A stretch of 64,000 nucleotides of DNA from Azolla caroliniana (lineage: Eukaryota > Plantae > Polypodiophyta), in NCBI GenBank assembly GCA_043228905.1, contig JBHGNT010000005.1, positions 10,726,001 through 10,790,000 of the forward strand, written 5' to 3'. This document shows, one piece after another, positions 9,419-64,000 of the stretch (its first letter is position 1; the number at the start of each line of letters is the position of its first letter). The notes under the pieces were generated by a model, which saw only the letters and a program-made list of their open reading frames with translations, had not been told where the DNA came from and ran no database searches. Both the position numbers and the translations under genes were made by a program.

Positions 9419-9560
9419 CAGCTAATTAGCTACTGACAGCTATTTAGCGACTGACAGCTATTTAGCTATTGACAGCTATTTAGCGATTGACAGCTAATTA
9501 GCTACTGACAGCTATTTAGCGACTGACAGCTAATTAGCTACAGGCAGCTAATTAGCTGCA
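9419..9560 (+). repeat. 18-bp tandem array (CAGCTA[A/T]TTAGC[T/G]ACTGA) in copia B U3; about 8 units here and 9 in the 3' LTR (14472-14631)
   Basis: Read directly; accounts for the 546 vs 564 bp LTR lengths. Confidence 0.9.
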
Positions 9561-13000: not shown

Positions 13001-14363
13001 GCAAGGAATTGATTATGATGAGACATTTGCACCGGTTGCAAAGATGGCAACATTGAGGACATTACTGGTTGTAGGTGCAGCTAGAAGATGGTTTCTTCAT
13101 CATATGGATGTAAAAAATGCCTTTTTACATGGTAACTTGGAAGAAGAAGTGTATATGTGTCAACCACCAGGTTTTGAAGATAGGAAGCATCCAGATTATG
13201 TATGTAAGCTGAAAAAGGTTCTCTATGGACTGAAACAGGCACCAAGAACATGGCACAGGGAACTTTCAGATTATCTGAAAAAACTTGACTTCAAAATGTC
13301 AAAGGCTGATTCATCATTGTATGTTAAAAGGAAAGATGATTGTATGGTTGTGATTCTGATTTATGTTGATGATCTCATCATTGGAGGTGATTTCATGGAT
13401 GAGATAAGTAAGCTGAAAAGAAATTTGGAAATGAAATTTCATATGAAAGATTTGGGAGATCTGAGATATTTTTTGGGTATTGAAATCATCAGATCTGAAA
13501 GTGGTATATGTGTGTTGCAAAGACAATATGCAACAACTATGTTGAAAAAGTATGGTATGCTTGGATGCAAACCTATTGGAGTACCACTAGATAAAAACAG
13601 CAAATTGAGGGCTGATTTGGGAGCCAAAATAGAAGATGTAAACATGTACAGGTCTATGGTGGGCAGCCTTATTTATTTGACCATAACAAGACCTGATTTG
13701 AGTTATGCAGTTGGATTAGTCAGCCAATTTATGCAACAGCCAACAAAGCCGCATTTGGACTGCATTAGAAGAATTCTGAGGTATGTAAAAGCTACTCAGA
13801 ACTATGGATTGTTTTACAGGGCTGATTTGGACATAAATCTGGAAGGATATACAGATGCTGATTGGGCTGGAAGCCAAACAGATAGAAGATCCACAAGTGG
13901 ATATATCTTTACATTGGGAAGTGCAGGTATTTCATGGAGTAGCAAGAAACAGGCTACTGTTGCATTGTCTAGTACTGAAGCTGAGTACAGAGGAGCTGCC
14001 ATAGCCACTTCTGAAGAGGTATGGATCAGAAGATTGCTTGCTGATTTGGGAGAGTATATAGATGGTACTGTCACAATCTGGTGTGACAACATGAGCAGCA
14101 TTCAACTTGCAAAGAACCCAGTGTTCCATGCAAGAACAAAGCACATTGAAGTGCATTATCACTTTGTTAGAGAAAAAGTGATTGAAGGAGAAGTTGATCT
14201 GGTGTATGTGAATACAAATCAGCAGGTTGCTGATATTCTCACAAAGGGATTGAGTGTGGAAAAGCATACACAGTTTCGGAACATGATGGGAGTTGTAGAC
14301 ATTGATATGATGGCTGAAAAGCATCATGAAAAAGGAGTTGTAGATAACCCCAAGAAAGGATAA
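10014..14363 (+). CDS. Copia gag-pol polyprotein (gag, CCHC, protease, integrase, RT, RNase H)
   Basis: Uninterrupted ORF with first ATG at 10014: CWYCGKPGHTQAEC, WYVDSGASNHM, DVWGP...SDGGGEY...[30 protein letters not shown]. Confidence 0.95.
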   Translation: MAAENAGQIVTEKLDKNNFLAWKFRMTNFLMGKGYWDYIEGDLEEAPEIPEENVTAAQIKAFKDWNQGARKVMHWLSLSISDSMLGHIQDVMLPKEAWDSLVKLFAVNTKARKLQLKTELNTLEKGKMSINEYALKIKSICESLASINVKIEDDDKVEICLRGLGPQYKSFKTSMLTRDSIPSFPDLVSMLVVEERNQMDDVNKGNLENEGQALYNSAGRGRGRGHGRFGSARTHNNGYQGRGQQTIRGRNNNRGRGSNQGRGKQTYVNDDGCWYCGKPGHTQAECYKKQNDEKRGKSQQNNYAQTSEDCEKDGAFVVQHEIAAVAESSQKCNEEFTWYVDSGASNHMTGHANWFERLREPEIPGYVRTGDNSTHQIEHVGDIPLWEEKGKTKYMLNVMHVPNLAKNLISVGQIVEQGMQVKFKQSGCYIEKNGKLIAKGKRQGRMFILDVDMPRQISAMFANGMSVVSDVEMWHKRIGHISMQTLKNMLRKDAVAGLPKLKNCEMGKICEACQYGKQNRLPFPHERHVSKNLLDLVRTDVWGPTKNASIGGCRFYVTFIDDCSRKTWVYFMKEKSEVFECFRKFKCMVEKQVGTRIKCLRSDGGGEYFSNEFSDFLSNQGIRRQFTCRYTPQQNGVAERKNRTLVNIARALMTEKNMPLYYWAEAVNTTNYILNRCITSGVHEATPEECFYGRKPSIEHLKVFGCLAYVHVPAEVRSKLDPKAEKCIFVGYSEEQKGYRCYNPVTKNTVTSRDVIFDELASWYSPKQNPETDEDNEIEDRDKSENVEDCHRDGSKVGQQSPTSTECSGPSKSSDGKFDSNSWSGKSGGHKKCDDKKGKQKMPEYEMLDDLSKNMEDEDSDVSLDDLLGIRGLKIPGMEKALKDANQKLRRSDREKKIVERFGYDTYMAMHYAYMSKVVLIPDPSSFDEAKTEKKWVDAMQEEIDALAENRTWDLVKLPKGKNVVGCKWVYKTKHDSSGNVSRHKARLVAKGYAQMQGIDYDETFAPVAKMATLRTLLVVGAARRWFLHHMDVKNAFLHGNLEEEVYMCQPPGFEDRKHPDYVCKLKKVLYGLKQAPRTWHRELSDYLKKLDFKMSKADSSLYVKRKDDCMVVILIYVDDLIIGGDFMDEISKLKRNLEMKFHMKDLGDLRYFLGIEIIRSESGICVLQRQYATTMLKKYGMLGCKPIGVPLDKNSKLRADLGAKIEDVNMYRSMVGSLIYLTITRPDLSYAVGLVSQFMQQPTKPHLDCIRRILRYVKATQNYGLFYRADLDINLEGYTDADWAGSQTDRRSTSGYIFTLGSAGISWSSKKQATVALSSTEAEYRGAAIATSEEVWIRRLLADLGEYIDGTVTIWCDNMSSIQLAKNPVFHARTKHIEVHYHFVREKVIEGEVDLVYVNTNQQVADILTKGLSVEKHTQFRNMMGVVDIDMMAEKHHEKGVVDNPKKG

Positions 14364-14951
14364 GTTGAGCTTGAGGGGGAGTGTTGAGAAGCAAGCTCAA
14401 CATGGTATGCGATGCTTATTGGGAAATAAGCTATAGTAGTTATTTAGCTACTTGTGAACATAAAGGAGAAACAGCTAATTAGCTACTGACAGCTAATTAG
14501 CTACTGACAGCTATTTAGCGACTGACAGCTATTTAGCTATTGACAGCTATTTAGCGACTGACAGCTAATTAGCTACTGACAGTTATTTAGCGACTGACAG
14601 CTAATTAGCTACAGGCAGCTAATTAGCTGCATACGTAAGTAACTTATTACTTAGGTAGAAAGTAAGAGAGTAAAGAAAATAAGAAGAAGGAATACAGGAA
14701 GTAGAACTCTGAGAGAGAGATAGTGAGCATAGAGAGAAAGAACTTAGAGAGTGAGCGCAAGAGAGAGAAGCAAACGAGAGCAAGTAGAGCTCTGCGCATA
14801 ATGAAATAGAAGAAGTTTTTGGCTGCTAGAGAGGTAAGTCTCCTTCCCCCTTCCCTTCTGTGTTTGAGCACTAAACGATCTAGCACACCACGATCCGTCG
14901 CGCACATAAGAAGAGCTCGAATGCCTTCTTCACGTTTTCTTAACAGTTCCG

Positions 14952-27040: not shown

Positions 27041-29685
27041 AATTGTGTCGTGGCGTCGTTCGCCTAGAAGCGTTGCGTAGACAGAAGACAACGTGAAAGT
27101 GAGGAAGGAATCGTTGGGATTTTGGACGAAAGAGACGAAAGAGTGGAAATAGATAAATAGAGATATGACAAGATAGGATGTAAAATGATAATTGAGGGAA
27201 TGTAAGAAATTTATAATTATTTCATGAAAGAGTTACAAAATGGTTGCGAGCGTCGTTGAACCGTCGAACTTTGTCTCACAAGCAAGGTTGTTAGGTACAT
27301 TAGATACGGTACGGATACCATACGTATTTAACGTATTAATACGCATATAGTACCTCCCAATTTAAAAATACGTTAAATACGTTTTTTAATATGTTAAATA
27401 CTTATCAAATACGTAAAATACGTATTTGACGTATTTTACGTATAATACGTTAAATACTTCTAGAATTTGAAAATTACTTATCTTTCAAAAAAATATTTGT
27501 AATATTGTAAAAAACATCTATGTTTACACAATGTACATTATAGTTCTACATCCTAAAATGCATATCAAACATTTGAACATTTCACATCCTAAAATACGTA
27601 TTAATATGAATGTCGACATTCACTTGTTCTATAAATTAGTGTGTATCACGATGTTCTACTTCAAATTGCAATTATTTACAATTATGCCCTTATAGATTGA
27701 GGAATCGTCTACGATTATCACACTCACTTTACATTTCTCTCTTCTTTTCTCTCTTCTTCATTATCTTCTTCATCATCCTTCTTCTTCTATCTTCTGTGAT
27801 TATCACACTTAGAGCCAGGACAGGTTTCAGTCTTCTTTTCTCTCTTTTTCTTCTTCTTCTTCGTCAACATCTCTTCTGTTCTTCTTTCTCTCCTTCTTTT
27901 TGCTTCTTTTTCACTCTTTTTTTTTTCTTTGGCTTTTTGTTGGGGTTTGGCTTACATTTTTTTATAAATACATATTATACCTGTTTTTCAAATGTATGTT
28001 AAACACCGTATTGGACAAATGTACATGATATTTGACTGAACAACATTGAGGTATAATACGTGTCACGAACACACCAAGCGTGGACTAAGACGGAGCACGG
28101 ATGATGAGACTACGACGGAGCAATGACGGAATGACACAAGAGCATAAAGATAGAGATGAAGATCAAGGAGAGAGGATGGGCGAAACGAGAATACTAGATT
28201 GATATGTCCATGACTAGCGTTGTTCACCTTGAATTCCTTCAAGGTGAACTCAACTATTTATACTAAGTGGCATGCATACCTGTTGCATGCATGTGATACA
28301 ATAGAGCATGTAGGCAGTAGGTACGCATGCATGTGCCAAGTGTTAATAATACAAGGGAGAAATTATGCACATAATGCTAGCTAAAACCTACAATGAGGAA
28401 GTATATACATGATTATATACTAGATGTGTGGTTAACACATAACACTCGATTATAACATGGTCATGTCAAGAGTTCGATTCTTGACATTATCCCCCCTCCA
28501 ACGATGCCTTCCCAAATTGTTTGTCGGCTTAAGGGGATATTGTTGATGAAAATCTTAGATCACCCCCAAAGTATTCTGTAAATCCTAGACAAGGAGTAAC
28601 CCTTCCACAAGACAGGGTATTTAACACCAACGGGCATGAGCGACCATGTGTGGTCCTCGCTAGCAATGGGCACAGTTTCGGCTCAAACCGAACCGAACCG
28701 TTAAACCGTGGCTTAACGGTTTATCGGTTCAAAATTAAATAATGAGTTTGGTTTGGTTTAAAGAATGGAAGTTCGGTTTGGTTTCGGTTCGGTTCGGTTT
28801 AACATTTATCGGTTTATCGGTTTATCGGTTTTATCGGTTTCTATTAATTTGGTTCGGTTTATAGGTTTATAGGTTCTTACCCTAGCCCTAAATTTTCAAT
28901 TTTATAAATTATACCCTTCCTAAATTTTCTATTTTATAAATTATACCCTTCTTATTTTTACTATGGACCTAATACTAGTTAGTAGTAGTAAGTACATACT
29001 ACAAACTACAGTGTATCTACAGACAGACAGACACAACTATCGAACAGAAAGGATTTAGGAGGCGCACTACACAGGCGGCATTGTGCAGGTTGAGGCGGCA
29101 ACCACCAATCACCACTTCCAATCACCACTTCATTGCTCTTCAGACTCCAGACTCTCCATAACACAGGTATGATCCATAACACAGGCTAAGTTTTTCCTTT
29201 TAGTTAACATGAAAAAATTGCAGTCTTCTCTTTGACTGATGAGTTGAAGATCATTTTAGACATGTATGAGAAGTAAATCATGCTCTTGATGGTGGAATTT
29301 ATTATCACATCGTTTTTAATAAATTGGATTGAAACCTTATCATTTCCGGGTTTCCTCTGCATTACATTTGTATAGTGCACCATAACATATAGTTCCATTG
29401 CATTTAATCGGTTTCTCACAAATTGGGCCGAACCCTTATCATTGTTCCCAGTACTTTACTTTATATTTGTATTGTATTGTGCAGCCAGAACTTCAGTGCA
29501 TGGGATGTTAGTTTCATTGCGATTTACTGCTCTATGGAATTATTTATATATACAAGATTCCTCTTGACATTATCTTTATGCTTATTAGACTCGGGATTTG
29601 GCTTATGGTGCTTCATAAAATAGGTCCAAAATTCTCTCTCAGATTTAATTATAACTAAATTTGATTAAATCACATAACTTAACAT

Positions 29686-30149
29686 CTTCCCTCACCTGCT
29701 TTTGAAAGGCCATTGGCAAGGAAATTATAAGTGTTTATGTTGGGCACTTCTCCCTTTTCTTTCATCATCTTAAATAATGCAACATCTCCTGGTTTCTCTT
29801 CTTGCTAGAAGGAATAAACAAGAAGGTTACATATATACAAGTTTGTTAACAAAACATGCTGAAGCATCTTATCATACATCCCATAAGCTTGCTTTGGAAA
29901 CCCTGCTTTCACCAATGCATCAATCATTATGTTAAATGTATGGGAATTGGGAATGCAGTCATATTTCTCCATCCTTTCAAAGGCTGTGACAGAAGCTTCA
30001 AGCATTCCAACATAAGCATAGACCCTGGCAATAGCTGTGAAAGCATTCGGTATCAAACTAACTTGATCCTTAACTATGTCTTCCATGAGAAATTCTATGG
30101 TCTTGAAATCCTTTGCCTCCCCAAGAATCTCAAAAAGCCACCAAGTTGA
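29686..30149 (-). pseudogene. Captured pentatricopeptide-repeat (PPR) gene fragment
   Basis: PNAFTAIARVYAYVG...AFERMEKYDCIPNSHTFNIMIDALVKAGFPKQAYGMYDKM...LFKMMKEKGEVPNINTYNFLANGLSKAG are P-class PPR motifs. Confidence 0.8.
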
Positions 30150-30340
30150 GCTAACTTAGCAATGTAACAATGTATCTTTCTATGTTAACATGTCTATCTT
30201 TCTATGTTTGCCATTAGACATAATGGTTGTTTTACTGTTCTTAGCTAACTTAGCAAACTTTCTACTTCATTTATTTTTCTCATTATAATGTATTTGAAAT
30301 GTGCTAATTGAGTTAATTGAATTTTATAGGACACCATAAA

Positions 30341-32552
30341 ATGGAATCATCATCTCAAACTGATGCTGCAATGAACTCATCTTCAATTGATGTTAGTCGT
30401 GGGTCAACAAGTAGCTCAAGAAAAAGGCTACGCACATCATGGACAGATGCTCACATCATATTTTATATGGATAATGGCACACCTCGACGATGATGCCATC
30501 ATTGCCATGTTTGTTGGTCTTCTACAACATCCACAGGCACTATAGCCAAACATTTAGCAGAAAAGCATCGTTTATCAAGCGACCCAGACCAAAATTCAGG
30601 TATATCACAGCACATTCAATCTTCAATTGAGTCAGCTAGAGTATCTCATGTTTTAGAGAAGAAAATTGATGCTGCCATCGTGAAGTATATTGTGAAGGGA
30701 ACATTGCCCCATGCACATGTGGAATCACCTGAATTTAAGGAGTTCATGCAACAAATTGTACCTGGATATCAAGTAAAGTCAAGACGCACAATTAAGCGTT
30801 CTATCCTAGAAATGTATGTGGTGTTGCGTCGTCAGGTGATAGATTTGCTATCGAAATGCCAATCAAGATTTTCCATAACATTTGATGGTTGGTCAAATAG
30901 TAGTTTGAAGGGCTTTTACTCAGTGACACTTCATTGGGTATGTCATGAAACAGCAAGGTCAAGGTCAATGTTATTGGATTTTGTGCATGTATTTCCAGGT
31001 GTTGGATCAGGGAAGCGTTGTGCACATGCCCTTTTTGCTCGACTTCGATCCTTTGATATTTCTAGTCGACTCTTAGCTACAATTTTTGATGGAGTGAGTG
31101 ATGCACAAGTAGCTGCAAAAGAGTTGAGCATGTTGTTACAAGATGAGCATGGTAAGGAAATTTTGGCTCCATCACATATGTTAAGATGTATGGTTCACAC
31201 TTTTCAGTTGGGTATCAAGGCAGCATTAGAGGTTATCTCACCCTCAACAGAAAAGTTGAGAACAGTGCTCCATACTATTAGATCTAGCAAGGTTCGAAGG
31301 GAAGTGTTTAGGAAGTATGCTAGGATGGTTGAGCATCATGAAAGGGAACCCCCAAGGCTCGATGTTGTTACAAGATGGAATTCTACCTTGGAAATGTTTA
31401 GGCAATCTATCAAGGATAAAGATGTATTGAACTTTACAATTTCAGATTTAACAATATCAAGTGATTTCAATGGTAATGTCTTGACCAGAGAAGATTGGAG
31501 TCACATACATGCCATGGCGGAATGGCTAGATACACCGGCCGAGGTTTCTACTTTTCTGGGAGGCTCAAGATATCCTACATTATCACTAGCATCGCTAGCA
31601 TATAATTGTTTACTAAATCATTGCAATCAATTTTTAGATTCTTCGCTTCCAGGATCATCTAGATTCACACAAGAGGTGCTTCAAAGAGCATCTAAGAACT
31701 GCTTGCAATATTTAATTAAGTATCAAGAATCGTTAAAGTCTATTCCATCTCGCATAGCAATGTTTCTTGATCCCAGGTAATGCTTACCTTTATATCATAC
31801 AATTATCATCATGATTTCTGATTTTTTATTTGAGTTTAAAACCGTTTTATTTGTTTGATAGATTGCCTCTTCCAAATAATCATACAAAAAGAGAGTTAGA
31901 TATTAAGTTGGTTGAAAGCATGATTGAGTCCCACTATCACTCGTTCTCGAGTGATGTTGAACCACCTTCGGCTTCAACCACAATACATGAAAATGATAAG
32001 AATTCTAAAATTTGGACGTTAATGGGTGTAAATAATAAAAGTCTTATTTCCGATTCACAGTCAGAAATTCAACATTTTATGAGACTTCCTTCGGCTAGCA
32101 CGGACAAGGATCCTTTACAATGGTGGAATGATAATAAATCGGCAATGCCTTCACTATATAGGATGGCATGTGATTACCTCAGTATACCAGCATCATCAGT
32201 ACCTGCTAAAGAGGCTAATTCGGCAGCAAAAATGTCCTTTGATAATAGGATAAAACTACATTCATGCACTTTCAAAGCTGAAATGTGCGTTCGATCATGG
32301 ATGAATGTTTTAAAAGAATGTAATGTTCAAATGTTAGATAATTTTCACATCAGTTATGCGGAACTAACAATGAATTTGGATGATCTTGTTGCTGAAGACG
32401 AGGTAATAGATTACATATCGCATGATAGTCAAAGGAAAATTAAGGTATGCATACTACTTGGTTGTTTTTTATTTGAGTCTTTACTTAAAGTATTTTTATT
32501 AATAATTACTTACTTGTTTTTATGTATTTTATATGTACAGGAATCATGTTGA
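30341..32552 (+). pseudogene. hAT transposase (BED finger, DDE core, C-terminal dimerisation domain) with a premature stop at 30491
   Basis: ATG 30341, W...*CHHC...HLAEKH, TFDGWS, RCMVH, DVVTRWNST, FLDPR, predicted introns 31777-31861 and 32445-32540, PLQWW...DYLSIPASSV. Confidence 0.9.
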
Positions 32553-33339
32553 TTTTTGACATGTTAACGACAATAGTGGTTGCAATTGGAGATCTTCAAA
32601 GTCATTGTAATTTTTATTACATGTTGTTTACTATTTTGTTTTTAGTCGATTCTTTAAATTTGTTATTATGAATTACTTAATTCTTTTGTATATTTTATAC
32701 TTTCAGGAATCCCTTATTCAAATATTGGAAACAAAAAGCTGGATTAAGTTTACATATATGGTCCTATGGATTTGGAAAATTGGAACTCTATTATATGGAT
32801 TGTTGTTCTTAATTGGAAATTTGGAACTCTATTGTATGGAATTTTGGAACTCTATTGTATGGATTTTTGTTATCATTCCAAAAAACATTTATCTTTTTAT
32901 GTAATATCTTATCATGTTTCACAAATTAACAATTTTCAGAAAATGTGTTGTGAATTTCTGTTATTTTATAGTGTTCTAGTCTTTGATTTGGTACAATTTA
33001 TTGTTTCGTGTTGCTTGGATTATGTCAAAACCAATTTGGTTTGGTTTGGTTTTGATGTTTGATACACTGGTTTGGTTTTGATTTTTGGTAAACCGGTTCG
33101 GTTTGGTTCTACATTTTACATAAACGGTTTGGTTTTAAATGGTTTGGTTTCTCATACCTATTAAACGGTTTGGTTTAAATGGTTTGGCTTAAATAGTTTG
33201 GTTTAAATGGCTTCAAATTTTTTAAATGGTTTGGTTTGGTTTTTATTCTGAATAACCGGTTTGGTTTGGTTTGGTTTGGTTTCAAGGTCAAGAAACCGAA
33301 CCGAACCGAAACCGAACCGCGCCCATTGCTAGTCCTCGC

Positions 33340-33985
33340 CTAGAACTGGAACACAAATATTAACGAGTGTGAGCGACCATGTGCGGTCCTCACGGGGAGC
33401 ATGAACACCAAGGGGCATGAGTAACCATGTGGGGTCCTTGCCGGGAACTAGAACGGTCCTCGCAGAGAGTTGGAACACGAACACCAATGGGTGTGAGCAA
33501 CCATGTTGTCCTCACCTAGAAATGGAACACGAACGAGTGAGCGACCATGTGGCCCTCGGTGGGAACAGGAACACGAATGGGAGTAATCGACCATGTGTGG
33601 TCCTCACCAAGAACTGGAACATGAACAACAACGGGCATGAGCGAACATGTCTGTCCTCACCAAGATCTGGAACACGAACAGTAGTTGGAGTGAGCGACCA
33701 TGTCGGTCCTCACCAAGATCTGGAACACGAACAATAGTTGGAGTGAGCGACCATGTGCGGTCCTCACTAGAGATTGGAACACGAACAGGAGTGAGCAACC
33801 ATGCAGCCCTCACCGGGAAACACGAACGGGAGTGAGCGGCCATGTGCGTCCCTCACTGGGAACAGGAACACAAACGGGCGTGAGCGACCATGCGGCCCTC
33901 ACCGGGAACTCGAACACCAACACCAACGGGAGTGACCGGCCTTGTGCGGCCCTCACAGGGAACTAGAACACGAACACGAACGGGA
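33340..33985. repeat. Tandem array of about 13 units of ~45-53 bp, each with the hairpin GTGAG-C-GACC-ATGTGC-GGTC-CTCAC
   Basis: Read directly; the first unit (28625-28660) is separated from the rest by the hAT insertion. Confidence 0.9.
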
Positions 33986-35534
33986 AAGAAACTAAAAAAT
34001 AGAGACAATGATGATGAGAAAATAAAAGCCAATGAAAATGATGAGAAGAAACTAGGAGATAGAAATGGCGAGGAAGATAGGAAATGAAGCGATGTTGATG
34101 ATGGTACGGTGACGATGGTAACTCTAGAAGCAAGGGTGATGACGGAGACGAGTGATGCTTCTAGTTGGAAGGTGAACAAACTGTCACGGACACACCAAGC
34201 GTGGACTAAGACGGAGCACGGATGATGAGGCTACGACGGAGCAATGACGGAATGACACAAGAGCATAAAGATAGAGATGAAGATCAAGGAGAGAGGATGG
34301 GTGAAACGAGAATACTAGATTGATATGTCCATGACTAGCGTTGTTCACCTTGAATTCCTTCAAGGTGAACTCAACTATTTATACTAAGTGGCATGCATAC
34401 CTGTTGCATGCATGTGATACAATAGAGCATGTAGGTAGTAGGTACGCATGCATGTGCCAAGTGTTAATAATACAAGGGAGAAATTATGCACATAATGCTA
34501 GCTAAAACCTACAATGAGGAAGTATATACATGATTATATGCTAGATGTGTGGTTAACACATAACACTCGATTATAACATGGTCATGTCAAGAGTTCAATT
34601 CTTGACAATACGTACTATACAAATTATGAGGTATTATACGTATTTAAACGTTAAATGCAGGTACGTAAACAACCATGCTCACAAGGTAATCGCTCTTCTC
34701 TTTCTTGATAGTAGACCACAATCTTCCCGTCTATCGTTCGATGAGGATAAGACTCGAACCTCTGCCTTTTCGTTGCGAGTTGAGCACCGCCGCCGCCAAG
34801 CTAGTTCTTCTCTTGTCTTTTGAAGATTGTATACAGCTTTTACCTTCTCTCCCTCTTACTCTATTATGATCTCTTACAATATAATTTTGCTCAATTCCAT
34901 ACAATAATTCTATTCAATATGATTGTTCGATTCCTTGATGTCCTTGTAACTATACTCCCTTCTCCTTTTATAGGAAGGGGATGGTTTTGCATGTGGGCCA
35001 TATGTCACACATGCAAAGAGGGCTCTTGCATGTGTGCTATATGGTGCGATTGTAGTACATTACATGGTTTAGACTATACAATGCTACTTCAAATAAAACA
35101 ACACATTTTCTTTTATACATATGACAAGTTTGGTTCAATGGTAGGCTTTTAGGTTCATAATGTGGAGGTTGTTGGTTCAAGTTTTCTCTCGCCCATGTAA
35201 TACAATATATGGTGCACATGTAGTACATTATATGGTTTAGGATTTAAACCATACAATATTACTTCAAATAAAATAAGACATATATTGATTTATACAAATT
35301 ACAATTATAGGGTAAATGGTAAGGTTTGAGAGTCATAAGGTGGGTGTTATTGGTTCAAGTCCTCTTTTGTCCATGTAATTTTTTATTTTTTTTTGCCTCT
35401 ACATATAATGTATAATATTATCATAGTGTGTTTTTAATATTACCTTTATAAAACATTATGAAGATATATTTTATTTTAGTTACGTATTTATCTTTTTGTA
35501 GACTTTTAATGTGAAGCTTTTGTACTTCATGACA

Positions 35535-35781: not shown

Positions 35782-38163
35782 TATTAGAGATCTAGGTACT
35801 AAAGTAAGCTTAAGATAAGGATAAACTAATGATAGATAGAAAGGAGAAAGAGAAAGAAGGGTGTCGATCCACCCAACCACCCCCGAGAGAAGGGATCGAG
35901 ACGGACTCAAGCCTCGATCGGCGTCCCATACCACCGTCGTGGCGTCGAGTCGTACCTGGTGCTGGCGCGCTCGCTACAAGAGTTGACCCACCACAAGAGC
36001 AGAGTCTCGATGTAGTCAAAAGATGATGAAATAAGGGTAGCTAGGCCTCTTATTTATAGCGATACCCAAGGCCCCCAGGCAAGTTCACACTTGACCTAAT
36101 GGGTTGTCTCAATCCCGAGGATTAAAAGTAATCCTCCCCTTCTTTACACTCTCGTTTAACTCTCACACTAATCCACGTGTATAGAATACTACGGTAAATT
36201 CTCACCACGGGATATTATATGGTCATGCCCGTGATCTCTATATCGATTTTTTCATGGCGGCTCCCCGAGGCTCAACCATGTATGTTCGCGTCATGAGTAG
36301 TTTATACACGAAAAAAAATGTTAACAATAAACTATGTTTCTTTGCCCACATATGTGGTTTCGGCTCTTTAAGTCCTATTACGAGGACCCCGAGGTGCACT
36401 TAGACCTTAAGTCTAAACATGTGTTATAGTCATATGTATCAAGGATGTTGTATGGTTTTGGTCATATTTGAACTCGAGACCTCGAGAACAAATACATTAA
36501 ACACTTGAGCCAACCAAGTAAGTTGCTCTTCTCGAATGCTTAATGTTCGATGCGTATAAGGGATATGCGAGGCATTTGATCATATATGTTTTTTTTAAAA
36601 GAACATATATGTCAAGGGTCCTGATTTCGCCCTCATTTACCAAAACTATGTTGGTACGTTACCTAACCTCAAGTCTCGTAATTACGATGGCATACGCCAA
36701 AGTGCAACCTAATGGTCAAGCCAAATGAGCCCTCGTTTTGTAGTAGGCCCACGTGGCCCATCACATGCTCACGTCATTACGAATGCCTCTCGTAAGAACG
36801 AGCTCATGGTGGCATCGTATCCATGTAACGAGGGAGGGATGTTGGATACGTGTGTCATTGGAGCGACCTCACTTGAAGTGGGTCAAGCCCTACGTACTCA
36901 ACATCATTATGGCTATAGGCATTTCTTTACGTAACGAAATCGAGGTCATCAACGGGGTTTTCAACAATCAAAAATTGCTGAAAAAGGGATGGTGACAACG
37001 CCATTCTCACAAAAATGTGAGGACGGCCACCAACATCCTTTTCCCGACAAGGACAACTTTCGATATAATCACGTAATAACGAATATACACATATGTTTAC
37101 TTATCACATATATACGATCAAATACGTATATACTTGACCACATATGCCTATATTAAACATATCGTTATATTAAATAGCCACAAATGATGTGATCGAGGTA
37201 CGTAATCGAGGTATATACCTCTACGCACACGAAACATCCACAAATAAGAGATCATCGTAATACGAAATTGAGGTATTGACCTCTTACGCATACGAGACCA
37301 AACGCATATCCTTTACAACAAATCAAGATATTAAACTCATACGCAAACGTAACATATGTTCGTGAACGTAATACGTAATTGAGGTATTAACCTCGTACGC
37401 ATACGACACTCATCACATATTATTTATATGTCAAACGAGGTATTGACCTCGTGCACATATGTAAACGTTTTAGATAATCAATTAAAGACCACTACAACAT
37501 CATTGACTTAATATAAAAAAATGACATATAAACTAAACACATGATTAGATGGGAGAAGAGAGAATAGAAAGAAAAAAAATTACAGAAAGAGTTACCGAAG
37601 TTCTTTGTTGATCGTTGTCTGGATCAAGGCCGACCGCACATCGATCAATCACCATCAATCAAAAGACAAAAGACAAACAAAGAAACATTAGTACATATCT
37701 CTGATACCAAATATTAGAGATCTAGGTACTAAAGTAAGCTTAAGATAAGGATAAACTAATGATAGATAGAAAGGAGAAAGAGAAAGAAGGGTGCCGATCC
37801 ACCCAACCACCCCCGAGTGAAGGGATCGAGACGGACTCAAGCCTCGATCGGCGTCCCATACCACCGCCGTGGCGTCGAGTCGTACCTGGTGCTGGCGCGC
37901 TCGCTACAAGAGTTGACCCACCACAAGAGCAAAGTCTCGATGTAGTCAAAAGATGATGAAATGAGGGTAGTTAGGCCTCTTATTTATAGCGATACCCAAG
38001 GCCCCCATGCAAGTTCACACTTGACCTAATGGGTTGTCTCAATCCCGAGGATTAAAAGTAATCCTCCCCTTTACACTCTCGTTTAACCCTCACACTAATC
38101 CACGTGTATAGAATACTATGGTAAATTCTCACCACGGGATATTATATGGTCATGCCCGTAACA
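35782..38163 (-). mobile_element. Internally deleted chromovirus-related LTR element (LTRs plus leader only)
   Basis: LTRs 35782-36232 and 37712-38163, TSD CCCGG/CCCAG, iMet PBS 37698-37709; LTR motifs (GGTATGGGACG, GGGGTGGTYGGGTGGA) are shared with the 56028 element; gag-pol and PPT absent. Confidence 0.85.
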
Positions 38164-47568: not shown

Positions 47569-48353
47569 TAGCAATGGGCCCGGTTCAGTTTCGGTTCGGT
47601 TTGGTTTCTTGGCCTTGAAACCAAACCAAACCATTTATTAATAAAAAAAACTAAACCAAACTGCTTTAAAATTTATGAAGCCATTTAAACTGAACCGTTT
47701 AGAGCCGAACCGTTAAACCAAACCGTTTAAAGCATAGGAGAAACCAAACCGTTTACGAAAAATTTAAAACCAAACCAAACCAAACCATTTATTATTGATA
47801 TTAATCATTATACTTATTATATATTTGTGTGAGAAAATCATCATAAATTTATTGATCATACTCATCATAAATTTTGACATCATACTTATTATAAAATTTG
47901 TCATCATACTTATCATAATTTTGGTCATCATACTAATCATAAATTTGATCATCATACTAATCATAAAGTTTATCATCATACTAATCATAAATTTGATTAT
48001 CATACTTATCATAATTGATCATCATAAATTAAAAAGAGACTCTACATATAATACATATAAAATTTAATAAGTTAAAACAAGAGTTTAAAATTAAAAGTTA
48101 AAAGTTATAGCTTATAGAAAATATTTATGAGTATTTTTTAACCTATAAACCTTTAAACCGAACCACATAAACAGAAACCGATAAGCCGCTAAACCGCTAA
48201 ACCGGTCAATTCAAAACCAAACCAAACCAAACCAAAACCGATTAGTAACATTTGAAACCAAACCAAACTGTTTAGTTATCTTTGAACCTATAAACCGTTA
48301 AGCCACAGTTTTTCGGTTCGGTTCGGTTCGAGCCGAAACCGGGCCCATTGCTA
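47569..48353 (-). mobile_element. hAT MITE (785 bp) of the same family as 28661-33331, opposite orientation
   Basis: TIR TAGCAATGGGCCCGGTT, TSD GAGATTAC/GATATTAC, shared subterminal sequence, internal 24-bp AT-rich tandem repeat (47800-48030). Confidence 0.92.
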
Positions 48354-51160: not shown

Positions 51161-51692
51161 TGTCCCATTCTAGAGTCGAACCTCTAACTTTTAACAAAAT
51201 GTACATTGTGTTGTGTTAACCATATGGAAACTCTTGTGAACTATCCACATTCGATTGTAAACTTGTATATATTGTAGAGTCTAGTGTATAGTACATTCAA
51301 GAATATTCTAGTCGTTAGTATATTCTAGACGGGTTTAGGGACCAAGGATGTTTGAATCCCTTGAAAGGGACCAAAGATGTTACAAGTATTTATACAATTT
51401 CCATTTAGAAAATATATCTCGAGAATATACCTTGAATATACCTTGAATTTCCATTTACAAGTATTTGAATCCCTTGAAATATCTCGAGAATATACCCGTT
51501 TAGAATATACCATAGAATCATTCTAGAATATACTAACGATTAGAATATTCTTGAATGTACTATACACTATACTCTACAATATATACAAGTTTACAATCAA
51601 ATGTGGACAGTTCACAAGAGTTTCCATATGGTTAACACAACACAATGTACTGTGTGTGTTAAAAGTCAGAGGTTCGAGTCTAGAATGCGACA
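51161..51692. mobile_element. Foldback/MITE with ~170-bp TIRs, TGT...ACA ends and a 5-bp TSD
   Basis: 51161-51329 is the reverse complement of 51522-51692; flanks CCACC/CTACC. Confidence 0.8.
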
Positions 51693-55800: not shown

Positions 55801-56744
55801 TGATTTTTTTTCTTAATAAAGCTTACAACTGTGAATCTGGTAGTATGATCTATGAACAAAATGAAATACCTTGCACCTGATAAGGATGGTATCAGGAATG
55901 GTCCACATAGATCTGTATGGACAAGTCGAAGTAGACGCTCTGTCGTTGTACAATTGTCTGTAAATGGTTGGTGTGTCATTTTTCCAAATAGATAGCTTTC
56001 ACACATGAAATATAAATTGAAGATTTTTGTTATGTACACATAACGTTGGTGAGTGTAGGTCACTAATATTTACATTAGTGAAGGGTATGTTCACTATTAT
56101 TAAAAAGGGGACTAATGATTGGATAGAATGAATGATATGTGCATGCACTATCATGATTTAGACAACCAATGAATAGAGAGCCTTTTAGAAAGGCACATCT
56201 ATTCAAGGGGCCTAGGAAAAGGTATAAATATGAGGCTTAGCTACCCTCATAGAGAGCATCACGTCGGAAGGCTGCTGTCGTAGACACCGGTGGTGCGGGC
56301 TAGGCTTTCGTCTCGACGATCGTGTTTATCTCTTCCAAGGTATTAGTCATCCTAATATCCGGCGGTATGGGACGTCGGTGGTAGGTTGGCTATGTCTAGA
56401 TCATAGCTCGGGGGTGGTCGGGTGGAACGGGTTCTTCTATCCAATCTATTTTCTTCCTTTTTACTTGATTTGGTCTATTGATTAGTAATAGACTCTTAAC
56501 AGTGGTATCAGAGCTTTTACTAACAATTTTTTTGTTGTTTTGATGTTTTTTGCGTGTGAGCGAGGGGGATCTAACAAGGCTCGTCATGCTCGTCTCAGGA
56601 TCAAAACAACACTCTAAACCCGGTATTCTTCTTTTTTGATCTCTTCTCTTTTTCTATTATGCGTTCTTTATGGTCGAATCAAATTGGTATTACGTTTTAT
56701 TCTCTTTCTTTCTACCTCCTACTACGCTACGATTTTACTTATTA

Positions 56745-57275
56745 TTATGCATCGGGCCGAGCGTGTTTGCACTAATCGCACACACTCAACTCATGGCCTT
56801 TTGCATATTGCGATATATATCCCACTCTCTCCTCTCTTGAACTCTTACGATAATAATTATTCTTGTGCATTGGGTCGAGCGTGTTTGCTCTAATCGCACA
56901 CGCTTATCTCATGGCCGTTTTGCATATGATGTTGAGTATACCACTCTTCCCCTCTATTGAGCCATCACTTGGCCGATTCTAAGGGATGATGTGGCCTTGA
57001 CGAGGTGTATGTTGCCTACCTATGCCACTCTACTCTCTATTAAGCCATCAATTGGCCGATTCTATGGGATGTTGTGGCCTTGACAAGGTATATGTAGCTT
57101 ACATATGCCACTTTTCTTTTTAATTAGCCATCAATTGGCAGATTCTAAGGGATGATGTGGCCTTGACGAGGTATATGTCACTTACCTATGCCACTTTCCT
57201 CTTTAATTAGCCATTACTTGGCCGATTCTAGGGATATGTGGTGGTCTTGAGGAGGTGCATGTCAACTACCCTAGG
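56745..57275 (+). repeat. Tandem repeats in the chromovirus leader: two of ~118 bp, then four of ~83 bp
   Basis: CGAGCGTGTTTGC..TAATCGCACAC twice; TTGGCCGATTCTAAGGGATGATGTGGCCTTGACGAGGT...ACCTATGCCAC four times. Confidence 0.85.
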
Positions 57276-58273
57276 GTTTCATATCTTAGGGCATGTTTGA
57301 TTCCATACACCTAATTGTTGATTATTCTAATTAAATTTTAATTTCATAAGTATTGTTTCACTTATATGATTTTTTAGTAATTATTATTTACCCGCCCACA
57401 ATTAACTCTCCTTTTTCCACTTCCTTTTCATGTATAAAGTATTTACATCGTTTATTTTAATGTAACCTTTACGTGTAGACTAATTTTTCGTATGGAGTGG
57501 CTTGTTGAACGATTTATTTATTTTTTCAACGGGTCATCTAGGTTTAACTCTTATCATCAAGCCTTAGAAAACGAGTAAAACCATATGAGTTCCCTTATTG
57601 ATGTTTTACTCATGGATTGAGTATTACATCTTTGCGCACAACACCGTCATCACTTGTATCAATTTGTGGCTTATGTCACAATTGTGCAAGTTATAACAAT
57701 CATATTGGGATGTATATGTGCATACCTTGCACTTCCCATTTATTTGTGACATTGTTTTTTTCGTAGGTAACACATGGGTTCTTTTTTTTTTTTACCCTTG
57801 TTTTCGTCACTACTTAACTCTTATGAGTAGTGCCTTATTTTATCATTTTATCATCACGTTTGCTTATTGCTCGCAAGACTAGAATATTACTTGTGAGTGC
57901 ACTTGTTTTTTCACGTAATACACTTTCTCGACCATATAATACATGATGGGTTGGCATTAATATAAGGCTATCTAGGAAATTTCATTGATGTAAGAACCAT
58001 GGTTGAGCCTCGGGGAGCCGCCATGATTACTCAAGATAGAGATCCGAGAAATACATCTTAGCTATGTTTTCCCCCATGGTTTTTAAAACACCATAGTGTT
58101 ACCATAGTTATCGGATCTCGAATCACATCTCATATGTCTAGAGGGGTAAAGACATGAGATACTTTCTTGGATAAAGTTCTTTCAATCAAAATTTCAAGCA
58201 TTCATTTTGCTTGTGTATTTTCTGAACCTCCTTATTTTATTGCATACCCACAGCGTGCATCATCGAACAAGTT

Positions 58274-61200
58274 TTGAACGCAGTTGGAACGATCTCTCCA
58301 AATGAGACCTCTCAACCCCAATCCGCATCTCGCACACAAGCTGAGATCACTATTGAGCAATTGCTCACTACTACCTTGAATCAATTGGCCGAAATGAGAC
58401 AGGCCAATATGGCATTGGAAAAGAAATTCCAAGAATTAACTATTGAGTCCAAGAAAGAAGGTGAACCTTCCTTCGTAGTCACGCCTTTCAAGGGAGATAA
58501 GAAAGAAAGAACCGAGGAGGCCATTAGCACTTGGCTTGGTCGTTGGGAGTCTCACTTTGAGCTTCATCCCAAGCCAGATGCAGTAAAAATTGGTTATGTC
58601 GGTCGTGAGTTAGGTGGCCGAGCTGCTGCTTGGTGGCGTGGCCTAAGGACCGCAAAAAACTTACCCACAACTTGGGAAGGTTTCGTTGATGTTTTTAAGA
58701 AACAATTCTTGCAGCCACCTTCTCAAACCGAACAAGCGCAACACTTGCTCACATTGTCTAGTAAGCCATTTACCTCTCTCGAGGATTATGTGCATCACGC
58801 TCGGACCCAGATCCAAAAATCGGGACTTACGGGTGAGAAATGGTTTGTCGCTTGTTTTTTGAATGGTATTCCCAATGGGGATTATCATTGGATTGTCCAT
58901 GACAAGGACCCCACAACTTTCGAGGAAGCCGTCAACATTGTGCTGCGATACCATAGGACTTCCAAGAAAGACCACAATAAACCTGAGTTCGCCAAAACTC
59001 CGAATGTCAAGTTCATTGGGAAACGTAAGCAATCCAGTGACACTCTTGACCGCGACTCAAAGAAACCGAACCTCTTCTGTGCATATTGCAAGAAGCGGGG
59101 CCACACAAAGGATACCTGTCGTCGTCTTGAGAGGAAGTCAATGAACACCCCTCCTCAAGACAAATCTACGAGTCACACAGGTGAGTCTTTTGATATTGTT
59201 GAAGTTCATACCAATCACTTAAGTTTATGTGAATGCACTTTTCCTTCACATTTACTTGGACCTAATGATTTACTCCGAGCAGTCGGATATATCAATGGAA
59301 CACAAGCACATTTCTTGTTTGATTCCGATAGTTCTCACAATTTTCTTAATGATCACTTTGTGCAGCAAATGGAGCTCCACATAAACGCAAGTGATCATAT
59401 CTATCAAGTTCACATGGCAAATGGAAACGTTCAATACATCAGTGGCATTGTTTGTCAACTGCCAATTCAAATAGATACTTATTTGGAGAAGCTTGACTTT
59501 CATGTTATGAAATTACAATCCGCAGATGTCATTTTAGGATATCCTTGGTTTTTTAATAAAAACCCTTCTTTGTCCATTGATTGGGTTAATCACTCAATCA
59601 CATTTGAACTTAATAATTGTAAACATTTTATTCAATGTTCCAAACTTCCTTCTCATTCACTTGTGTCTTCTAAATCTTTAAGTGAGTATTCTAGTTCATT
59701 AATTTATTCGTGTGTAATTGATCCGGCGGTTCAATTTTATTATTTTAATATTGACGCCACACAAATACCACATTTTGAGCAACGATTACTCGACTCTATT
59801 TTAGAGGATTTTCAAGATGTGTTTCCTACTAAATTACCGCTTACTTTACCACCTAAACGTAATGTGGACCATCAAATTGAACTCATCCCTGGGGCTGCTC
59901 CTGTGAGCATTCCACCTTACCGACTTAGTCGATTAGAAGAGGATGAGATCGCTAAACAACTTAAGGAATACTTGAGTATGGGCCACATTAGGTATAGTAA
60001 ATCACCTTGGGGTGCGCCAGTTCTATTAGTCAAGAAGAAGGAAGGTTCGTGGCGAATGTGTATCAATTATCGCCGTTTGAATAAAATGACAATTAAGAAT
60101 GCATATCCATTACCTCGTGCCGATGATTTGATTGATCGTTTGCACGGGGCTCGATATTTTACGAAAATTGACTTACGAACTGGTTATCATCAGATTCGCA
60201 TCGCTGAGGATGATATTCCTAAAACCGCTTTTCGTACGCGCTATGGCCATTATGAGTTTTTAGTCATGCCATTTGGGTTGACTAATGCTCCAGCCACATT
60301 CCAACAAGCGATGAATGATGTTTTCCGAGATCAACTCGGTGATTTTGTTGTCGTCTTCTTGGATGATATTTTGATATATAGCCGTACCTTGCAAGATCAT
60401 GTTCAACATGTTCGATTTGTTTTGCGAAAGTTGCGTGACAACTCTTTCTATGCAAAACATTCAAAATGTGACTTCTTCCAAAAATCTATTGTGTACCTAG
60501 GTCATTTAATTACAGAAAATGGCGTTGAAATTGAACCTTCTCGTATTGAAAAGGTTAAACTTTGGCCCATTCCTCGTAATATTCGTGAACTTAGATCATT
60601 CTTAGGGTTTGTTGGATTTTTACGAAAATCAATTCGTAACTATTCCAAATTGACTACGCCATTAACTGACCTTTTAAAAGGTCATCCACGTAAGTCTGTC
60701 AAACCAATTTCATGGAATGAACAACTTGACAAATCATTTGAGACACTCAAGGAGCATGTGTGTCAGGCTCCCACTCTTCTATTACCAGACCCTTCTAAGC
60801 CTTTCTCAATTGAAACCGATGCTAGTGATTATGCTATTGGTGTCGTTCTTTATCAAGGTGGTCACCCTATCGCTTTTGAAAGTAAGAAGCTTGATGTTGC
60901 TCAATCTCGGTATTCGGTTCAAGAGAAAGAGTTGTTTGCGGTGATACACGCACTTAAAACATGGAGGCACTATCTCTATGGAAATAAATTTGTGGTTACA
61001 ACAGACCATCAGTCATTAAAGTATTTTTCTGACCAGCCCGATCTTGTTGGTCGTAAAGGCCGTTGGGCTGACCTTATGCAAGATTTTGATTTTTCCACAC
61101 GATATCGCAAGGGTTCTATGAACACCGTTGCTGATGCTCTTAGTCGCATTAAAGAAGTTAACATGCTTAGCTTCACGGAAATAAAATCTGATCTTTTAGA

Positions 61201-62665
61201 TCACCTTCGAGGGAAATACCTTGATGACAGTTATTTCTCAAAATACTGGACGAAAGCCGAATCTGGTTTAGATGCCGATACTAGCACCCTACCCTCGAAG
61301 GCGACCTTTCCCATTACAAACGGTTTGCTCTACCGTAGTGGAAAGGTCTGTGTTCCAGATTTACCAAATGTTAAACAGAAAATTTTTCATGAATGTCATG
61401 ATGCACCATCTGCTGGTCATCCTGGAATACAACGCACACTCGTTCTCATCTCGTGTACTTTTTTCTGGCCTAAGATGCGCTCTGACGTGCATAAATACGT
61501 AACTCAATGCTTACAATGTCAGATTAATAAGTCGGAACGACTTAAAGCTGCTGGTCTTTTACATCCCTTAGATATTCCCAACAATAAATGGGAAAGTATC
61601 TCGATGGATTTTATTGTTAGTTTACCTCGTACACAGAGGGGTCATGATGCCATATGGGTTGTCGTTGACAGGCTAACAAAATTAGCTAGATTTATTCCTA
61701 CAAAAACCACGGTAACCGCTCAACAGTTGGCTTATCAATTTGTTGATGAGTTATTTCGTTTTTATGGATTACCGATGGATATTGTTAGTGATCGAGATTC
61801 CAAGTTTACTAGTGACTTTTGGACTCAGGTCTTTAAGAAACTAGAAACTACGTTGAGCATGAGTTCCGCAGATCATCCTCAGTCTGATGGACAAACTGAA
61901 CGAGTTAATCAAATTATTGAGGACATGCTTCGAGCTTATGTAGCAAAAACCCCTTCTAAGTGGGAGCAATACCTTCCTATCTTAGAATTTGCCTATAATA
62001 GCTCTAAACATACATCCACTGGATATAGTCCTTTTATGTTGATGTATGGTTTTCAGTCACGTGCCCCAGTTGATGTCACGATTCATTGTGATACATTAGA
62101 CAGTACACGCAATTTTTTGCAAGACATGAACCAAATGTTGCATATTGCCAAAGAAAATGTCAAGACAGCTCAAGATCGTGCTCGATTTTATGCTGATCAG
62201 GATAGACGTCCTCGTGCATTTACTATTGGTCAAAAAGTTTTTTTGCGTGTCCCGACTGATTCTACGTCATTATCTACGGGCAAGTGCGCTAAGTTAGCCC
62301 CACGATATTGTGGCCCATTTGAAATCCTTAAGCGAGTTGGGTCATCTGCTTATCACCTTGCCTTACCTCGTAACGTTGGTATTCATCCTGTTTTTCACGT
62401 CAGTCGTCTAAAACCATTTTTAGGCTCTGGTGATAACACCATCACAATCCAAGATCTTGTAACATTAGAGGATTTTTCTTACAAACCTCATGTTCCTGAA
62501 CGAATTCTTGATTCTCGTACTAAACGTTTACGTTCTAAAGAGATTCGGCTATTCAAGATCAAATGGATGGATAAACCTATTGATGATGCCACATGGGAAC
62601 GCGAGCATTCGCTTAAGGCACAATTTCCTCACTTTATATTGCAAGAGTGCAATCTTTTGAAGTAG
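58274..62665 (+). CDS. Gypsy gag-pol polyprotein with C-terminal chromodomain; true start probably on an upstream exon (56586-56622)
   Basis: [23 protein letters not shown] (protease), FTKIDL...[29 protein letters not shown]...SDRD...QTER, CGPF, PERILD...[14 protein letters not shown]. Confidence 0.93.
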
Positions 62666-64000
62666 GGGAGTATGTTATGTACACATAACGTTGGTGAGTG
62701 TAGGTCACTAATATTTACATTAGTGAAGGGTATGTTCACTATTATTAAAAAGGGGACTAATGATTGGATAGAATGAATGATATGTGCATGCACTATCATG
62801 ATTTAGACAACCAATGAATAGAGAGCCTTTTAGAAAGGCACATCTATTCAAGGGGCCTAGGAAAAGGTATAAATATGAGGCTTAGCTACCCTCATAGAGA
62901 GCATCACGTCGGAAGGCTGCTGTCGTAGACACCGGTGGTGCGGGCTAGGCTTTCGTCTCGACGATCGTGTTTATCTCTTCCAAGGTATTAGTCATCCTAA
63001 TATCCGGCGGTATGGGACGTCGGTGGTAGGTTGGCTATGTCTAGATCATAGCTCGGGGGTGGTCGGGTGGAACGGGTTCTTCTATCCAATCTATTTTCTT
63101 CCTTTTTACTTGATTTGGTCTATTGATTAGTAATAGACTCTTAACAATTTTGGATGGCAACCCTTGAACTCTTTTTTGTTGTTGACATTGTTGTAGTGCT
63201 TGATAGTAAACCCTTGAACTCTTTTTTGTTGTTGACATTGTTGTAGTGCTTGATAGTGCTTGAAGTAGACACTCTGTCGTTGTACAGTTGTTTGTAAATG
63301 GTTGGTGTGTCATTTTTCCAAATAGATAGCTTTCACACATGAAATCTGAATTGAAGATTTTGGATGGCAACCCTTGAACTCTTTTTTGTTGTTGACATTG
63401 TTGTAGTGCTTGATAGTGTACATGCCCAAGCCGGCAATGCCATAATTGAGTTAGTGAAGATCTTTTCTTGTGATTTTGCAGGACTGCTGAGAATGCATTT
63501 GGAGGATGACTCTGTATTTGATATAAGTGCTTCTCCTTGGGACACACCAACTGTGTACTTGTGTTTCCATTTTTGAAAAATAGAATTGCTTTCTCTTTAC
63601 AGAATTGTATTATTAGTCCGTCTACAGTTGCTTGTCCAACTGATAACAGGTGCTTAGCTAGTCCTGGTACATAATAGACATTTGGGACTGTAATCTCGTG
63701 ATTATCTAACAATCTGAGTTGATTGCTTCCTTTGCCGATTGTTGTTTTCCGTTTGTTGTCTCCAAAAGTAACTGACAGTGGGTTGGACAAAATCTAATAG
63801 AAATTTAACCAGTCCTTCTGATATGTGAGGTGATGTGTAGCTCCAATCTCTAGGTACCATGTATCATGTTCAGTTTTTGTCTCTTCTGCAATGACATGAT
63901 ATGCTCACAAAATATTGTCATCTTCTGTAATTTCATCCGAATCTCCTCCAAATTCCGTGTATTCTTCTGACTTCGAGTTTGATTTTTCTTCTAATGTTGC

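What the first reader, a model, noticed from the sequence alone, without database searches (positions are those of the whole stretch)
56586..58256. Probable 1.63-kb intron joining a 12-codon exon to an ATG-less chromovirus gag-pol
Seen: the 1463-aa ORF opens without ATG (first ATG about 40 codons in). It is preceded by CTGAAC, a pyrimidine tract and CAG (58251-58253). Just after the PBS, ATG 56586 reads MLVSGSKQHSKP up to CG|GTATTC (56622/56623). Splicing 56623-58253 joins the two in frame (CCC G|CG TGC ATC ATC GAA). The intervening DNA is U-rich. The related element at 35782-38163 has CG|GTAACT followed by a U-rich tract 114 nt after its PBS (120 nt here). Inference: spliced RNA is the mRNA and unspliced RNA the packaged genome.
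Basis: partly seen in the sequence, partly recalled or inferred. Interest (0 to 1): 0.72.

Follow-up and report, generated by a model that had tools for sequence, protein, structure and literature searches.

The report
Leader intron in plant chromovirus families
This copy of an abundant plant jumping gene only looks start-less because its own start codon has mutated, but it and related families carry splice-like signals around a 1.6-kb non-coding leader, which is likely cut out to make the protein-coding RNA while the uncut RNA would be packaged as the genome.

Summary
All motifs are at the stated places, but 'ATG-less gag-pol' is private to this copy. Siblings have ATG at 58262-58264: 19 of 19 fetched copies covering it and 97 of the first 100 listed genome-wide. 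The 12-codon exon is not conserved. In sister family B the matching upstream ATG meets a stop two codons past the junction, and the acceptor-to-ATG spacer is 12 or 13 nt.

The intron idea survives as a 5'-leader intron. Four lineages (about 75-77% identical to this one in RT) have branch-like motif, pyrimidine tract and YAG 8-13 nt before the gag ATG (4 of 4, against 69 of 2942 control ATGs). Both families with intact 5' ends have CG|GTA at PBS+114-120. A conserved, structured 165-nt box lies inside the putative intron. No intron-less genomic copy was found.

Against: no RNA junction was seen (coverage near zero), and 34 of 100 family-A copies lack the acceptor G. Verdict: a likely leader intron (about 0.6), not shown at RNA level.

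The parts
56023..56027 (.). 5-bp target-site duplication, left copy (right copy 63147-63151); the element sits inside a minus-strand Ty1/copia
56028..56501 (+). 5' LTR, 474 bp, identical to the 3' LTR; TATA-like box 56223-56229
56338..56345 (+). rival splice donor AG|GTA inside the LTR; a like site exists in family B; GC-rich downstream
   Evidence: use not shown
56503..56514 (+). primer-binding site, initiator-Met tRNA type (motif recalled), set in a predicted U5-leader stem about 56477-56527
56533..56611 (+). predicted long hairpin; the same layout is predicted in family B and B'; it ends just before the donor
   Evidence: prediction
56586..56622 (+). upstream ATG plus 12 codons; in frame with gag in family A only; likely incidental or a backup start
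56623..58253 (+). putative 1631-nt 5'-leader intron: donor CG|GTATTC, T rises from 18% to 55% at the GT, 43 ATGs inside
   Evidence: splicing inferred
56955..57233 (+). three 83-nt tandem repeats inside the putative intron
57998..58160 (+). conserved structured box, candidate packaging/dimerisation signal; least diverged region of the element
   Evidence: function inferred
58222..58253 (+). branch-like motif, pyrimidine tract and CAG acceptor
58262..58264 (+). position of the family's gag start codon; privately substituted in this copy
58262..62665 (+). single gag-PR-RT-RH-INT-chromodomain frame; this copy also has a private substitution in the protease motif (59328)
62659..62672 (+). polypurine tract
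62673..63146 (+). 3' LTR
35782..38163 (-). internally deleted copy of sister subfamily B': LTR, PBS (37709), donor (GT at 37595), leader up to the start of the box, then the 3' LTR

Best explanation
This is a young copy of a high-copy Ty3/gypsy chromovirus family whose gag-pol has its own start codon 8 nt after an acceptor-like site (mutated only in this copy), and whose 1.6-kb leader is likely a facultative 5'-UTR intron. Shown: element anatomy, private loss of the ATG, conserved donor-like and acceptor-like motifs, the conserved box between them, and no intron-less copy among those searched. Inferred: splicing from the donor at the foot of the post-PBS hairpin to the AG just before gag removes 43 of 47 upstream ATGs and gives a translatable mRNA. 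Inferred: the box is the packaging signal, so only unspliced RNA is packaged and copied. Inferred, weaker: splice-dead alleles spread in family A because all their RNA is packageable.
For: Start codon: 19 of 19, 97 of 100; the Met-start N-terminus of L036 aligns by eye with the family's. Acceptor: YAG with branch-like motif and pyrimidine tract 8, 13, 8 and 8 nt before the gag ATG in A, B, L033 and L036. The rule is met by 4 of 4, against 69 of 2942 window ATGs and 7 of 179 leader ATGs, although the local sequence aligns poorly. TAG plus 8 nt is also seen in several decayed family-C copies. Family B keeps AG in 85 of 86 and GT in 97 of 97. Donor: CG|GTA at PBS+120, +118, +114, with T content jumping to 55% in both families; donor-like sites occur at 0.11 per kb in the window. 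Leaders hold 37-57 ATGs, which scanning could not pass (established knowledge). Box: 4.1% divergence against 7-8% in coding and 15% in mid-intron sequence; fold z -2.29, 3 of 200 shuffles as good; 5 of 40 pairs compensatory. No junction-type copy in A (one hit, a point variant) or B.
Against: No RNA junction: 52-59 reads per run with almost no depth at either site; no 56622-58254 joint among the joints listed for 5 contig sets (8 joints were not shown). The acceptor G is absent in 34 of 100 family-A copies: 11 of 69 young and 23 of 31 old, and in the 97%-identical assembly L032. It is the most changed of 219 CHG sites in the unbiased sample, 4 of 19 against a mean of 1.6%. At face value this is the opposite of purifying selection. 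Family B shows no such excess. GTATTC and CTGAAC are mediocre matches to recalled consensus. Four (A) and six (B) ATGs would remain in exon 1. Only two families have a readable 5' end, and the lineages share ancestry. The acceptor rule was written after the sites were seen.
Confidence: 0.6

Rival explanations
1. Same acceptor, different main donor: splicing starts at AG|GTA inside the LTR (56339/56340). This removes the PBS and every upstream ATG, so the mRNA could not be reverse-transcribed at all.
For: Better exon-side context (AG|GT); similar position in A, B and B'; intact in 31 of 32 young and 19 of 20 readable old copies; no ATG between the presumed start site and this donor in A.
Against: The next 40 nt are only 15-25% T, unlike plant introns. 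No cluster of loose ends is listed at 56339 although RNA depth there was 4-8 per strand (those reads are mostly diverged LTRs).
Confidence: 0.15
2. One reading: the upstream ATG 56586 is a real start after splicing and adds 15 residues. It would also let copies without the first AG use the in-phase AGs at 58271 or 58283.
For: In frame; present in 31 of 31 readable young copies, with no gap in the window's columns of the exon in 53 of 53 readable copies (many were chosen on this region). The next two AGs are in the same phase. This could explain why acceptor loss is tolerated in A and not in B. The 8-nt spacer in L033, L036 and family C is also stop-free in that phase.
Against: Not in frame or stop-blocked in B and B'. 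ATG changed in 6 of 22 readable old copies. Differences by codon position are 48/11/26 against 216/211/711 in the capsid (few independent events). The stretch is explained as a hairpin arm. Three other ATGs precede it.
Confidence: 0.2
3. No splicing: the long leader is read by ribosome shunting or internal entry guided by the structured box, and the AG before gag is chance or a relic.
For: No junction seen; one third of family-A copies lack the AG; the box lies about 100 nt before the ATG; shunting over long uORF-rich leaders is known in plant pararetroviruses (PMC5902531, passages).
Against: Branch-like motif, pyrimidine tract and YAG recur in four lineages with different local sequence; donor-like site at a fixed distance from the PBS with a sharp U step; family B keeps both sites.
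Confidence: 0.25

Closest known systems
Plant chromoviruses (Ty3/gypsy; Neumann et al. 2019, PMC6317226; passages and section 9 read)
   Same: Single gag-pol frame in Ty3 order with a C-terminal chromodomain, LTRs, PBS, PPT, 5-bp TSD.
   Different: 1.7-kb non-coding leader with conserved splice-like signals; no leader intron is mentioned in the passages read. It has a tRNA-type PBS, unlike most Tcn1 elements. Clade not determined.
Ogre (intron between PR and RT), EVADE and BARE1 (spliced short-Gag RNA); PMC6317226, PMC12786077, PMC3735527, passages read
   Same: Facultative splicing in a plant LTR retrotransposon; BARE has separate RNA pools for translation and packaging.
   Different: Their introns lie inside the coding region and set the Gag:Pol ratio. 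Here the putative intron lies wholly upstream of gag and would gate all translation.
Diaspora of soybean (PMC1142308, passages read)
   Same: Unusually long LTR-to-gag distance (873 bp) with predicted acceptors flanking the start codon.
   Different: Athila-like, not a chromovirus; only single-family predictions. The authors state (2005) that no intron upstream of gag had been reported for any LTR retroelement.
Retroviral 5' leader, PBS - hairpin - major splice donor - psi (search listing, abstracts only; layout partly recalled)
   Same: Donor about 100 nt after the PBS and a candidate packaging element downstream of it, so spliced RNA would lose it.
   Different: Retroviruses translate gag from the unspliced RNA; here gag-pol itself would come from the spliced RNA.
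CaMV/RTBV leader splicing and ribosome shunting (PMC5902531, passages); Drosophila ZAM/Beagle short upstream exon spliced to env (PMC12992720, passage)
   Same: Leader donor or short upstream exon joined to a downstream ORF.
   Different: These serve accessory or downstream ORFs, not the first gag-pol ORF of an LTR retrotransposon.

Membership tests
Ty3/gypsy chromovirus | Domain order gag-PR-RT-RH-INT | tested here: met
   Pfam hits in this order
Ty3/gypsy chromovirus | Chromodomain at the integrase C-terminus | tested here: met
   PF00385, 31.1 bits, cut-off 25.1
Ty3/gypsy chromovirus | TG...CA LTRs, PBS, PPT, TSD | tested here: met
Chromovirus clade (Tcn1, Galadriel, Tekay, Reina, CRM) | Placement in RT/INT phylogeny with reference elements | not testable with these tools
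Tcn1 clade | Self-priming, no tRNA PBS (majority feature, PMC6317226) | tested here: not met
   tRNA-type PBS at 56503 (motif identity recalled)
U2-type spliceosomal intron | GT donor, branch-like motif, pyrimidine tract, YAG; U-rich against flanks | tested here: met
U2-type spliceosomal intron | Sites conserved across diverged relatives | tested here: inconclusive
   kept between families but acceptor G lost in 34 of 100 family-A copies
U2-type spliceosomal intron | Junction seen in RNA | tested here: inconclusive
   coverage too low
Coding first exon of gag | Downstream exon lacks its own start codon | tested here: not met
   ATG in 19 of 19 and 97 of 100 siblings
Coding first exon of gag | Frame and peptide conserved across families | tested here: not met
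   family B/B': stop after the junction, spacer 12 or 13 nt, frame-shifted peptide between B and B'
Packaging signal (psi) | Needed and sufficient for Gag binding and encapsidation | not testable with these tools
   only conservation and predicted structure; no Rfam match

The most novel reading that the evidence does not exclude
A clade of plant chromoviruses makes all Gag-Pol from an RNA spliced upstream of gag, with the packaging signal inside the intron, so one splicing decision sorts mRNA from genome, the reverse of the retroviral arrangement. Copies that lose the splice-site G spread as cheaters, leaving a visible selection footprint at 58253 and, more weakly, at 56623.
Probability: 0.3. 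Interest if true: 0.75.

Novelty: new variant of a known kind. Interest (0 to 1): 0.5.

Why it matters
How one retrotransposon transcript serves as both mRNA and genome is an open question (PMC3735527, passage). The plant introns named in a 2025 review are inside the coding region (Ogre, EVADE; PMC12786077, passages), and a 2005 paper says none was known upstream of gag (PMC1142308). A conserved leader intron that contains the candidate packaging signal gives a simple, testable switch. It would also explain long ATG-rich leaders in other elements. The finding also warns that an 'ATG-less ORF' in a single transposon copy must be checked against siblings.

Tried and rejected
RNA: no RNA holder on record was listed. 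Three raw poly(A) runs gave 52, 58 and 59 reads, mostly on the LTR, and no joint. Five contig sets gave no joint at the predicted sites among those listed. By bin arithmetic one X5 contig seems to stop at about 56623 and two X9 reads cover about 41 bases past 56599 together. This is near the donor, but the tables do not show it directly, X5 is only guessed to be RNA, and I do not count it as evidence.

Intron-less genomic copies: none in A (1 hit, point variant) or B (0 of 97). This fits both 'no splicing' and 'spliced RNA not packaged'.

TACTAAC at 56519-56525, shared with family B, looked like a second branch point. It is better explained by pairing with U5 around the PBS and has no consistent AG after it.

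The small element as a non-autonomous family: rejected; it is a deleted B' copy, and most of 20 B'-type copies continue into gag. Acceptor-less copies as one clade or as more decayed: not seen; no linked marker, best p 0.15, unshared changes 0.26% in both classes.

More 5' ends: L033, L036 and the decayed family-C loci have no own PBS in the fetched DNA (the PBS-like hits in L057 and L063 were judged by eye to be unrelated); viral contigs gave nothing; Rfam nothing. The 'orf' column and the parser were faulty and are not used; spacers were counted by eye. Counts are by eye, on the first 100 of 242 and of 175 matches; the patterns demand exact flanks, so decayed copies are under-counted. L011-L030 were chosen on 56503-56700, so their donor conservation is not evidence.

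Literature searches that found no report of a spliced leader upstream of gag in a plant LTR retrotransposon: (open-access library only; two returned 0 papers; no supplements read).

Full report
Anatomy. The finding lies in a complete Ty3/gypsy element at 56028-63146. It has identical 474-bp LTRs, a 5-bp target-site duplication, a tRNA-type PBS at 56503, a polypurine tract and one frame (58226-62665 stop to stop) with capsid, protease, RT, RNase H, integrase and chromodomain. It is inserted in a minus-strand copia. The genome (G000, 523 Mb) holds hundreds of relatives: 441 candidates, 40 scored, all at 99-100%; 242 exact matches to an acceptor-region pattern. An unchecked note of this scan calls the genome a fern; I did not test that.

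The ORF is not ATG-less in the family. Of 20 full-length siblings, 19 cover the site and all 19 have ATG at 58262-58264, 8 nt after the CAG. Genome-wide, the first 100 of 242 listed matches give ATG 97, ATT 2, and ATC once, in this copy (counted by eye). This copy is the only 100% match among 40 scored of 396 candidates. Four of 15 listed database cluster members are 1467 aa, and the two members I read start at that Met. The window copy has 23 private substitutions, including this codon and one in the protease motif; 4 are silent and 11 not, similar to the unshared changes of siblings, 74 to 182. It is a damaged copy, and the premise of the title falls.

The 12-codon exon is not a conserved coding exon. 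A second young family, B (L047-L054, 73.6% identical over the ORF), has its exon-1 ATGs in phase 0, a 13-nt acceptor-to-ATG spacer and a stop two codons after the junction (6 of 8 loci printed). Of 20 older B'-type copies, 10 have a 13-nt and 6 a 12-nt spacer, one has the stretch deleted, one is decayed and two lack the region (by eye). A 1-nt difference shared by six copies is not what coding sequence does. The exon-1 peptides of B and B' are frame-shifted against each other over nine codons. In family A the 12 codons diverge 13.6% between young and old subfamilies without third-position bias, and they overlap the 3' arm of a long hairpin predicted in A, B and B' alike. A use of ATG 56586 in family A alone is not excluded: it is in frame, and the next two AGs are in the same phase.

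The intron signals are conserved. In four lineages the gag ATG is preceded by a branch-like motif, a pyrimidine tract and YAG, at 8 (A), 13 (B), 8 (L033) and 8 nt (L036); B, L033 and L036 are 75-77% identical to A in RT. A simple rule from recalled plant features is met by 4 of 4, by 69 of 2942 ATGs of the window and by 7 of 179 other leader ATGs. The rule was written after I saw the sites and the lineages are related, so this is supportive, not a p-value. Several decayed family-C copies show TAG plus 8 nt (13 loci fetched, 3 were family A). The donor CG|GTA stands at PBS+120 (A), +118 (B) and +114 (B'), at the foot of the hairpin, and T content jumps from 18-27% to 55% at the GT. Family B keeps AG in 85 of 86 and GT in 97 of 97 matches. 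The leaders contain 37-57 ATGs; removing the interval leaves 4 in A and 6 in B.

A candidate packaging signal lies inside. A 165-nt box (57998-58160) is the main part of the leader that aligns across all lineages. It is the least diverged region of the element, 4.1% against 7-8% in capsid and RT. It folds better than 197 of 200 shuffles, has 5 compensatory pairs of 40 in four sequences, and matches no Rfam family. Its first 22 nt plus a downstream anchor match 467 places in G000, and the first 100 listed are all of A or B type. Its function is inferred. If it is psi, spliced RNA would not be packaged, which fits the absence of intron-less copies; that absence also fits no splicing.

Results against, and an unexplained footprint. 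The acceptor G is missing in 34 of 100 family-A copies (A 29, T 4, C 1), while the A before it is intact in 100 of 100. By subfamily this is 11 of 69 young copies against a CHG mean of 1.6%, and 23 of 31 old copies against 16.5%. In the sample not chosen on this site it is 4 of 19, the highest of 219 CHG sites. The variant is linked to no other marker, and nearly all pairs of common sites show four gametes, so it recurs or recombines freely. The donor G is changed in 7 of the first 100 of 175 matches, its CpG neighbour in 1. Binomial tails are small but copies are not independent. Old B' copies lose the AG in 5 of 18, near decay level, and young B copies in 1 of 86. I read this as splice-escape alleles favoured in family A because unspliced RNA is the one copied. 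It can also be read as the AG being dispensable, or as a methylation hot spot with lineage effects.

RNA. No run on record as RNA holds the stretch. Three poly(A) runs, about 12% of each read, gave 52-59 reads each, nearly none at the junction, and no joint. Contig sets gave no joint at the sites among those listed. Splicing is therefore not shown and not refuted.

Comparison. The element is a chromovirus by the tested features; its clade was not testable. Known plant LTR-retrotransposon introns in the passages I read are within the coding region: Ogre (PMC6317226, PMC4408406), EVADE (PMC12786077) and BARE1, which also separates translated from packaged RNA (PMC3735527). The Diaspora paper predicted sites around a long leader and stated in 2005 that no intron upstream of gag was known (PMC1142308). 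The find calls on PMC2864245 and PMC2832683 showed nothing relevant. Ten searches of the open-access library found no later report; subscription papers and supplements were not seen, so prior description cannot be excluded.

Verdict. Observation confirmed. Interpretation half right: there is no ATG-less gag and no conserved coding exon, but a conserved 5'-leader intron is likely (0.6). The full spliced-mRNA / unspliced-genome model with intronic packaging signal and splice-escape selection is possible (0.3). New variant of a known kind, interest 0.5.

Noticed in passing
window 56028-63146: Identical LTRs that share a private variant (56054/62699), yet 23 private changes including the start codon and protease motif. 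This suggests descent from an aged parent copy mobilised in trans, or LTR conversion; 2 of 19 siblings also have identical LTRs.
   Followed up: partly
window 58253 and 56623: Splice-site Gs are over-mutated in family A but not in young family B; unexplained.
   Followed up: partly
family A copies L011-L030, L096-L107: Nearly all pairs of common polymorphisms show four gametes, pointing to frequent recombination between co-packaged RNAs or recurrent mutation.
   Followed up: partly
window 36240 (junction in 35782-38163, minus strand): The internal deletion joins the leader box to the 3' LTR a few bases after its start, apparently at a short microhomology.
   Followed up: partly
L116: A B' copy with a 13-nt deletion that removes exactly the AG and most of the spacer before the gag ATG.
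   Followed up: no
window 56477-56527: U5-leader stem around the PBS with a compensatory change between families A and B, and a TACTAAC heptamer in its 3' arm.
   Followed up: partly
window 28061-34481: Two 99%-identical repeats 6121 nt apart enclose a 428-aa frame (30494-31780) with no Pfam hit and an array of about 53-nt repeats at 33332-33956.
   Followed up: no
window 9418-14788: Apparently intact Ty1/copia, 1461-aa frame, repeats 98% identical.
   Followed up: no
window 47800-48039 and 51194-51657: A 24-nt tandem array, and a 136-nt inverted repeat (95%) with a 192-nt spacer, MITE-like.
   Followed up: no
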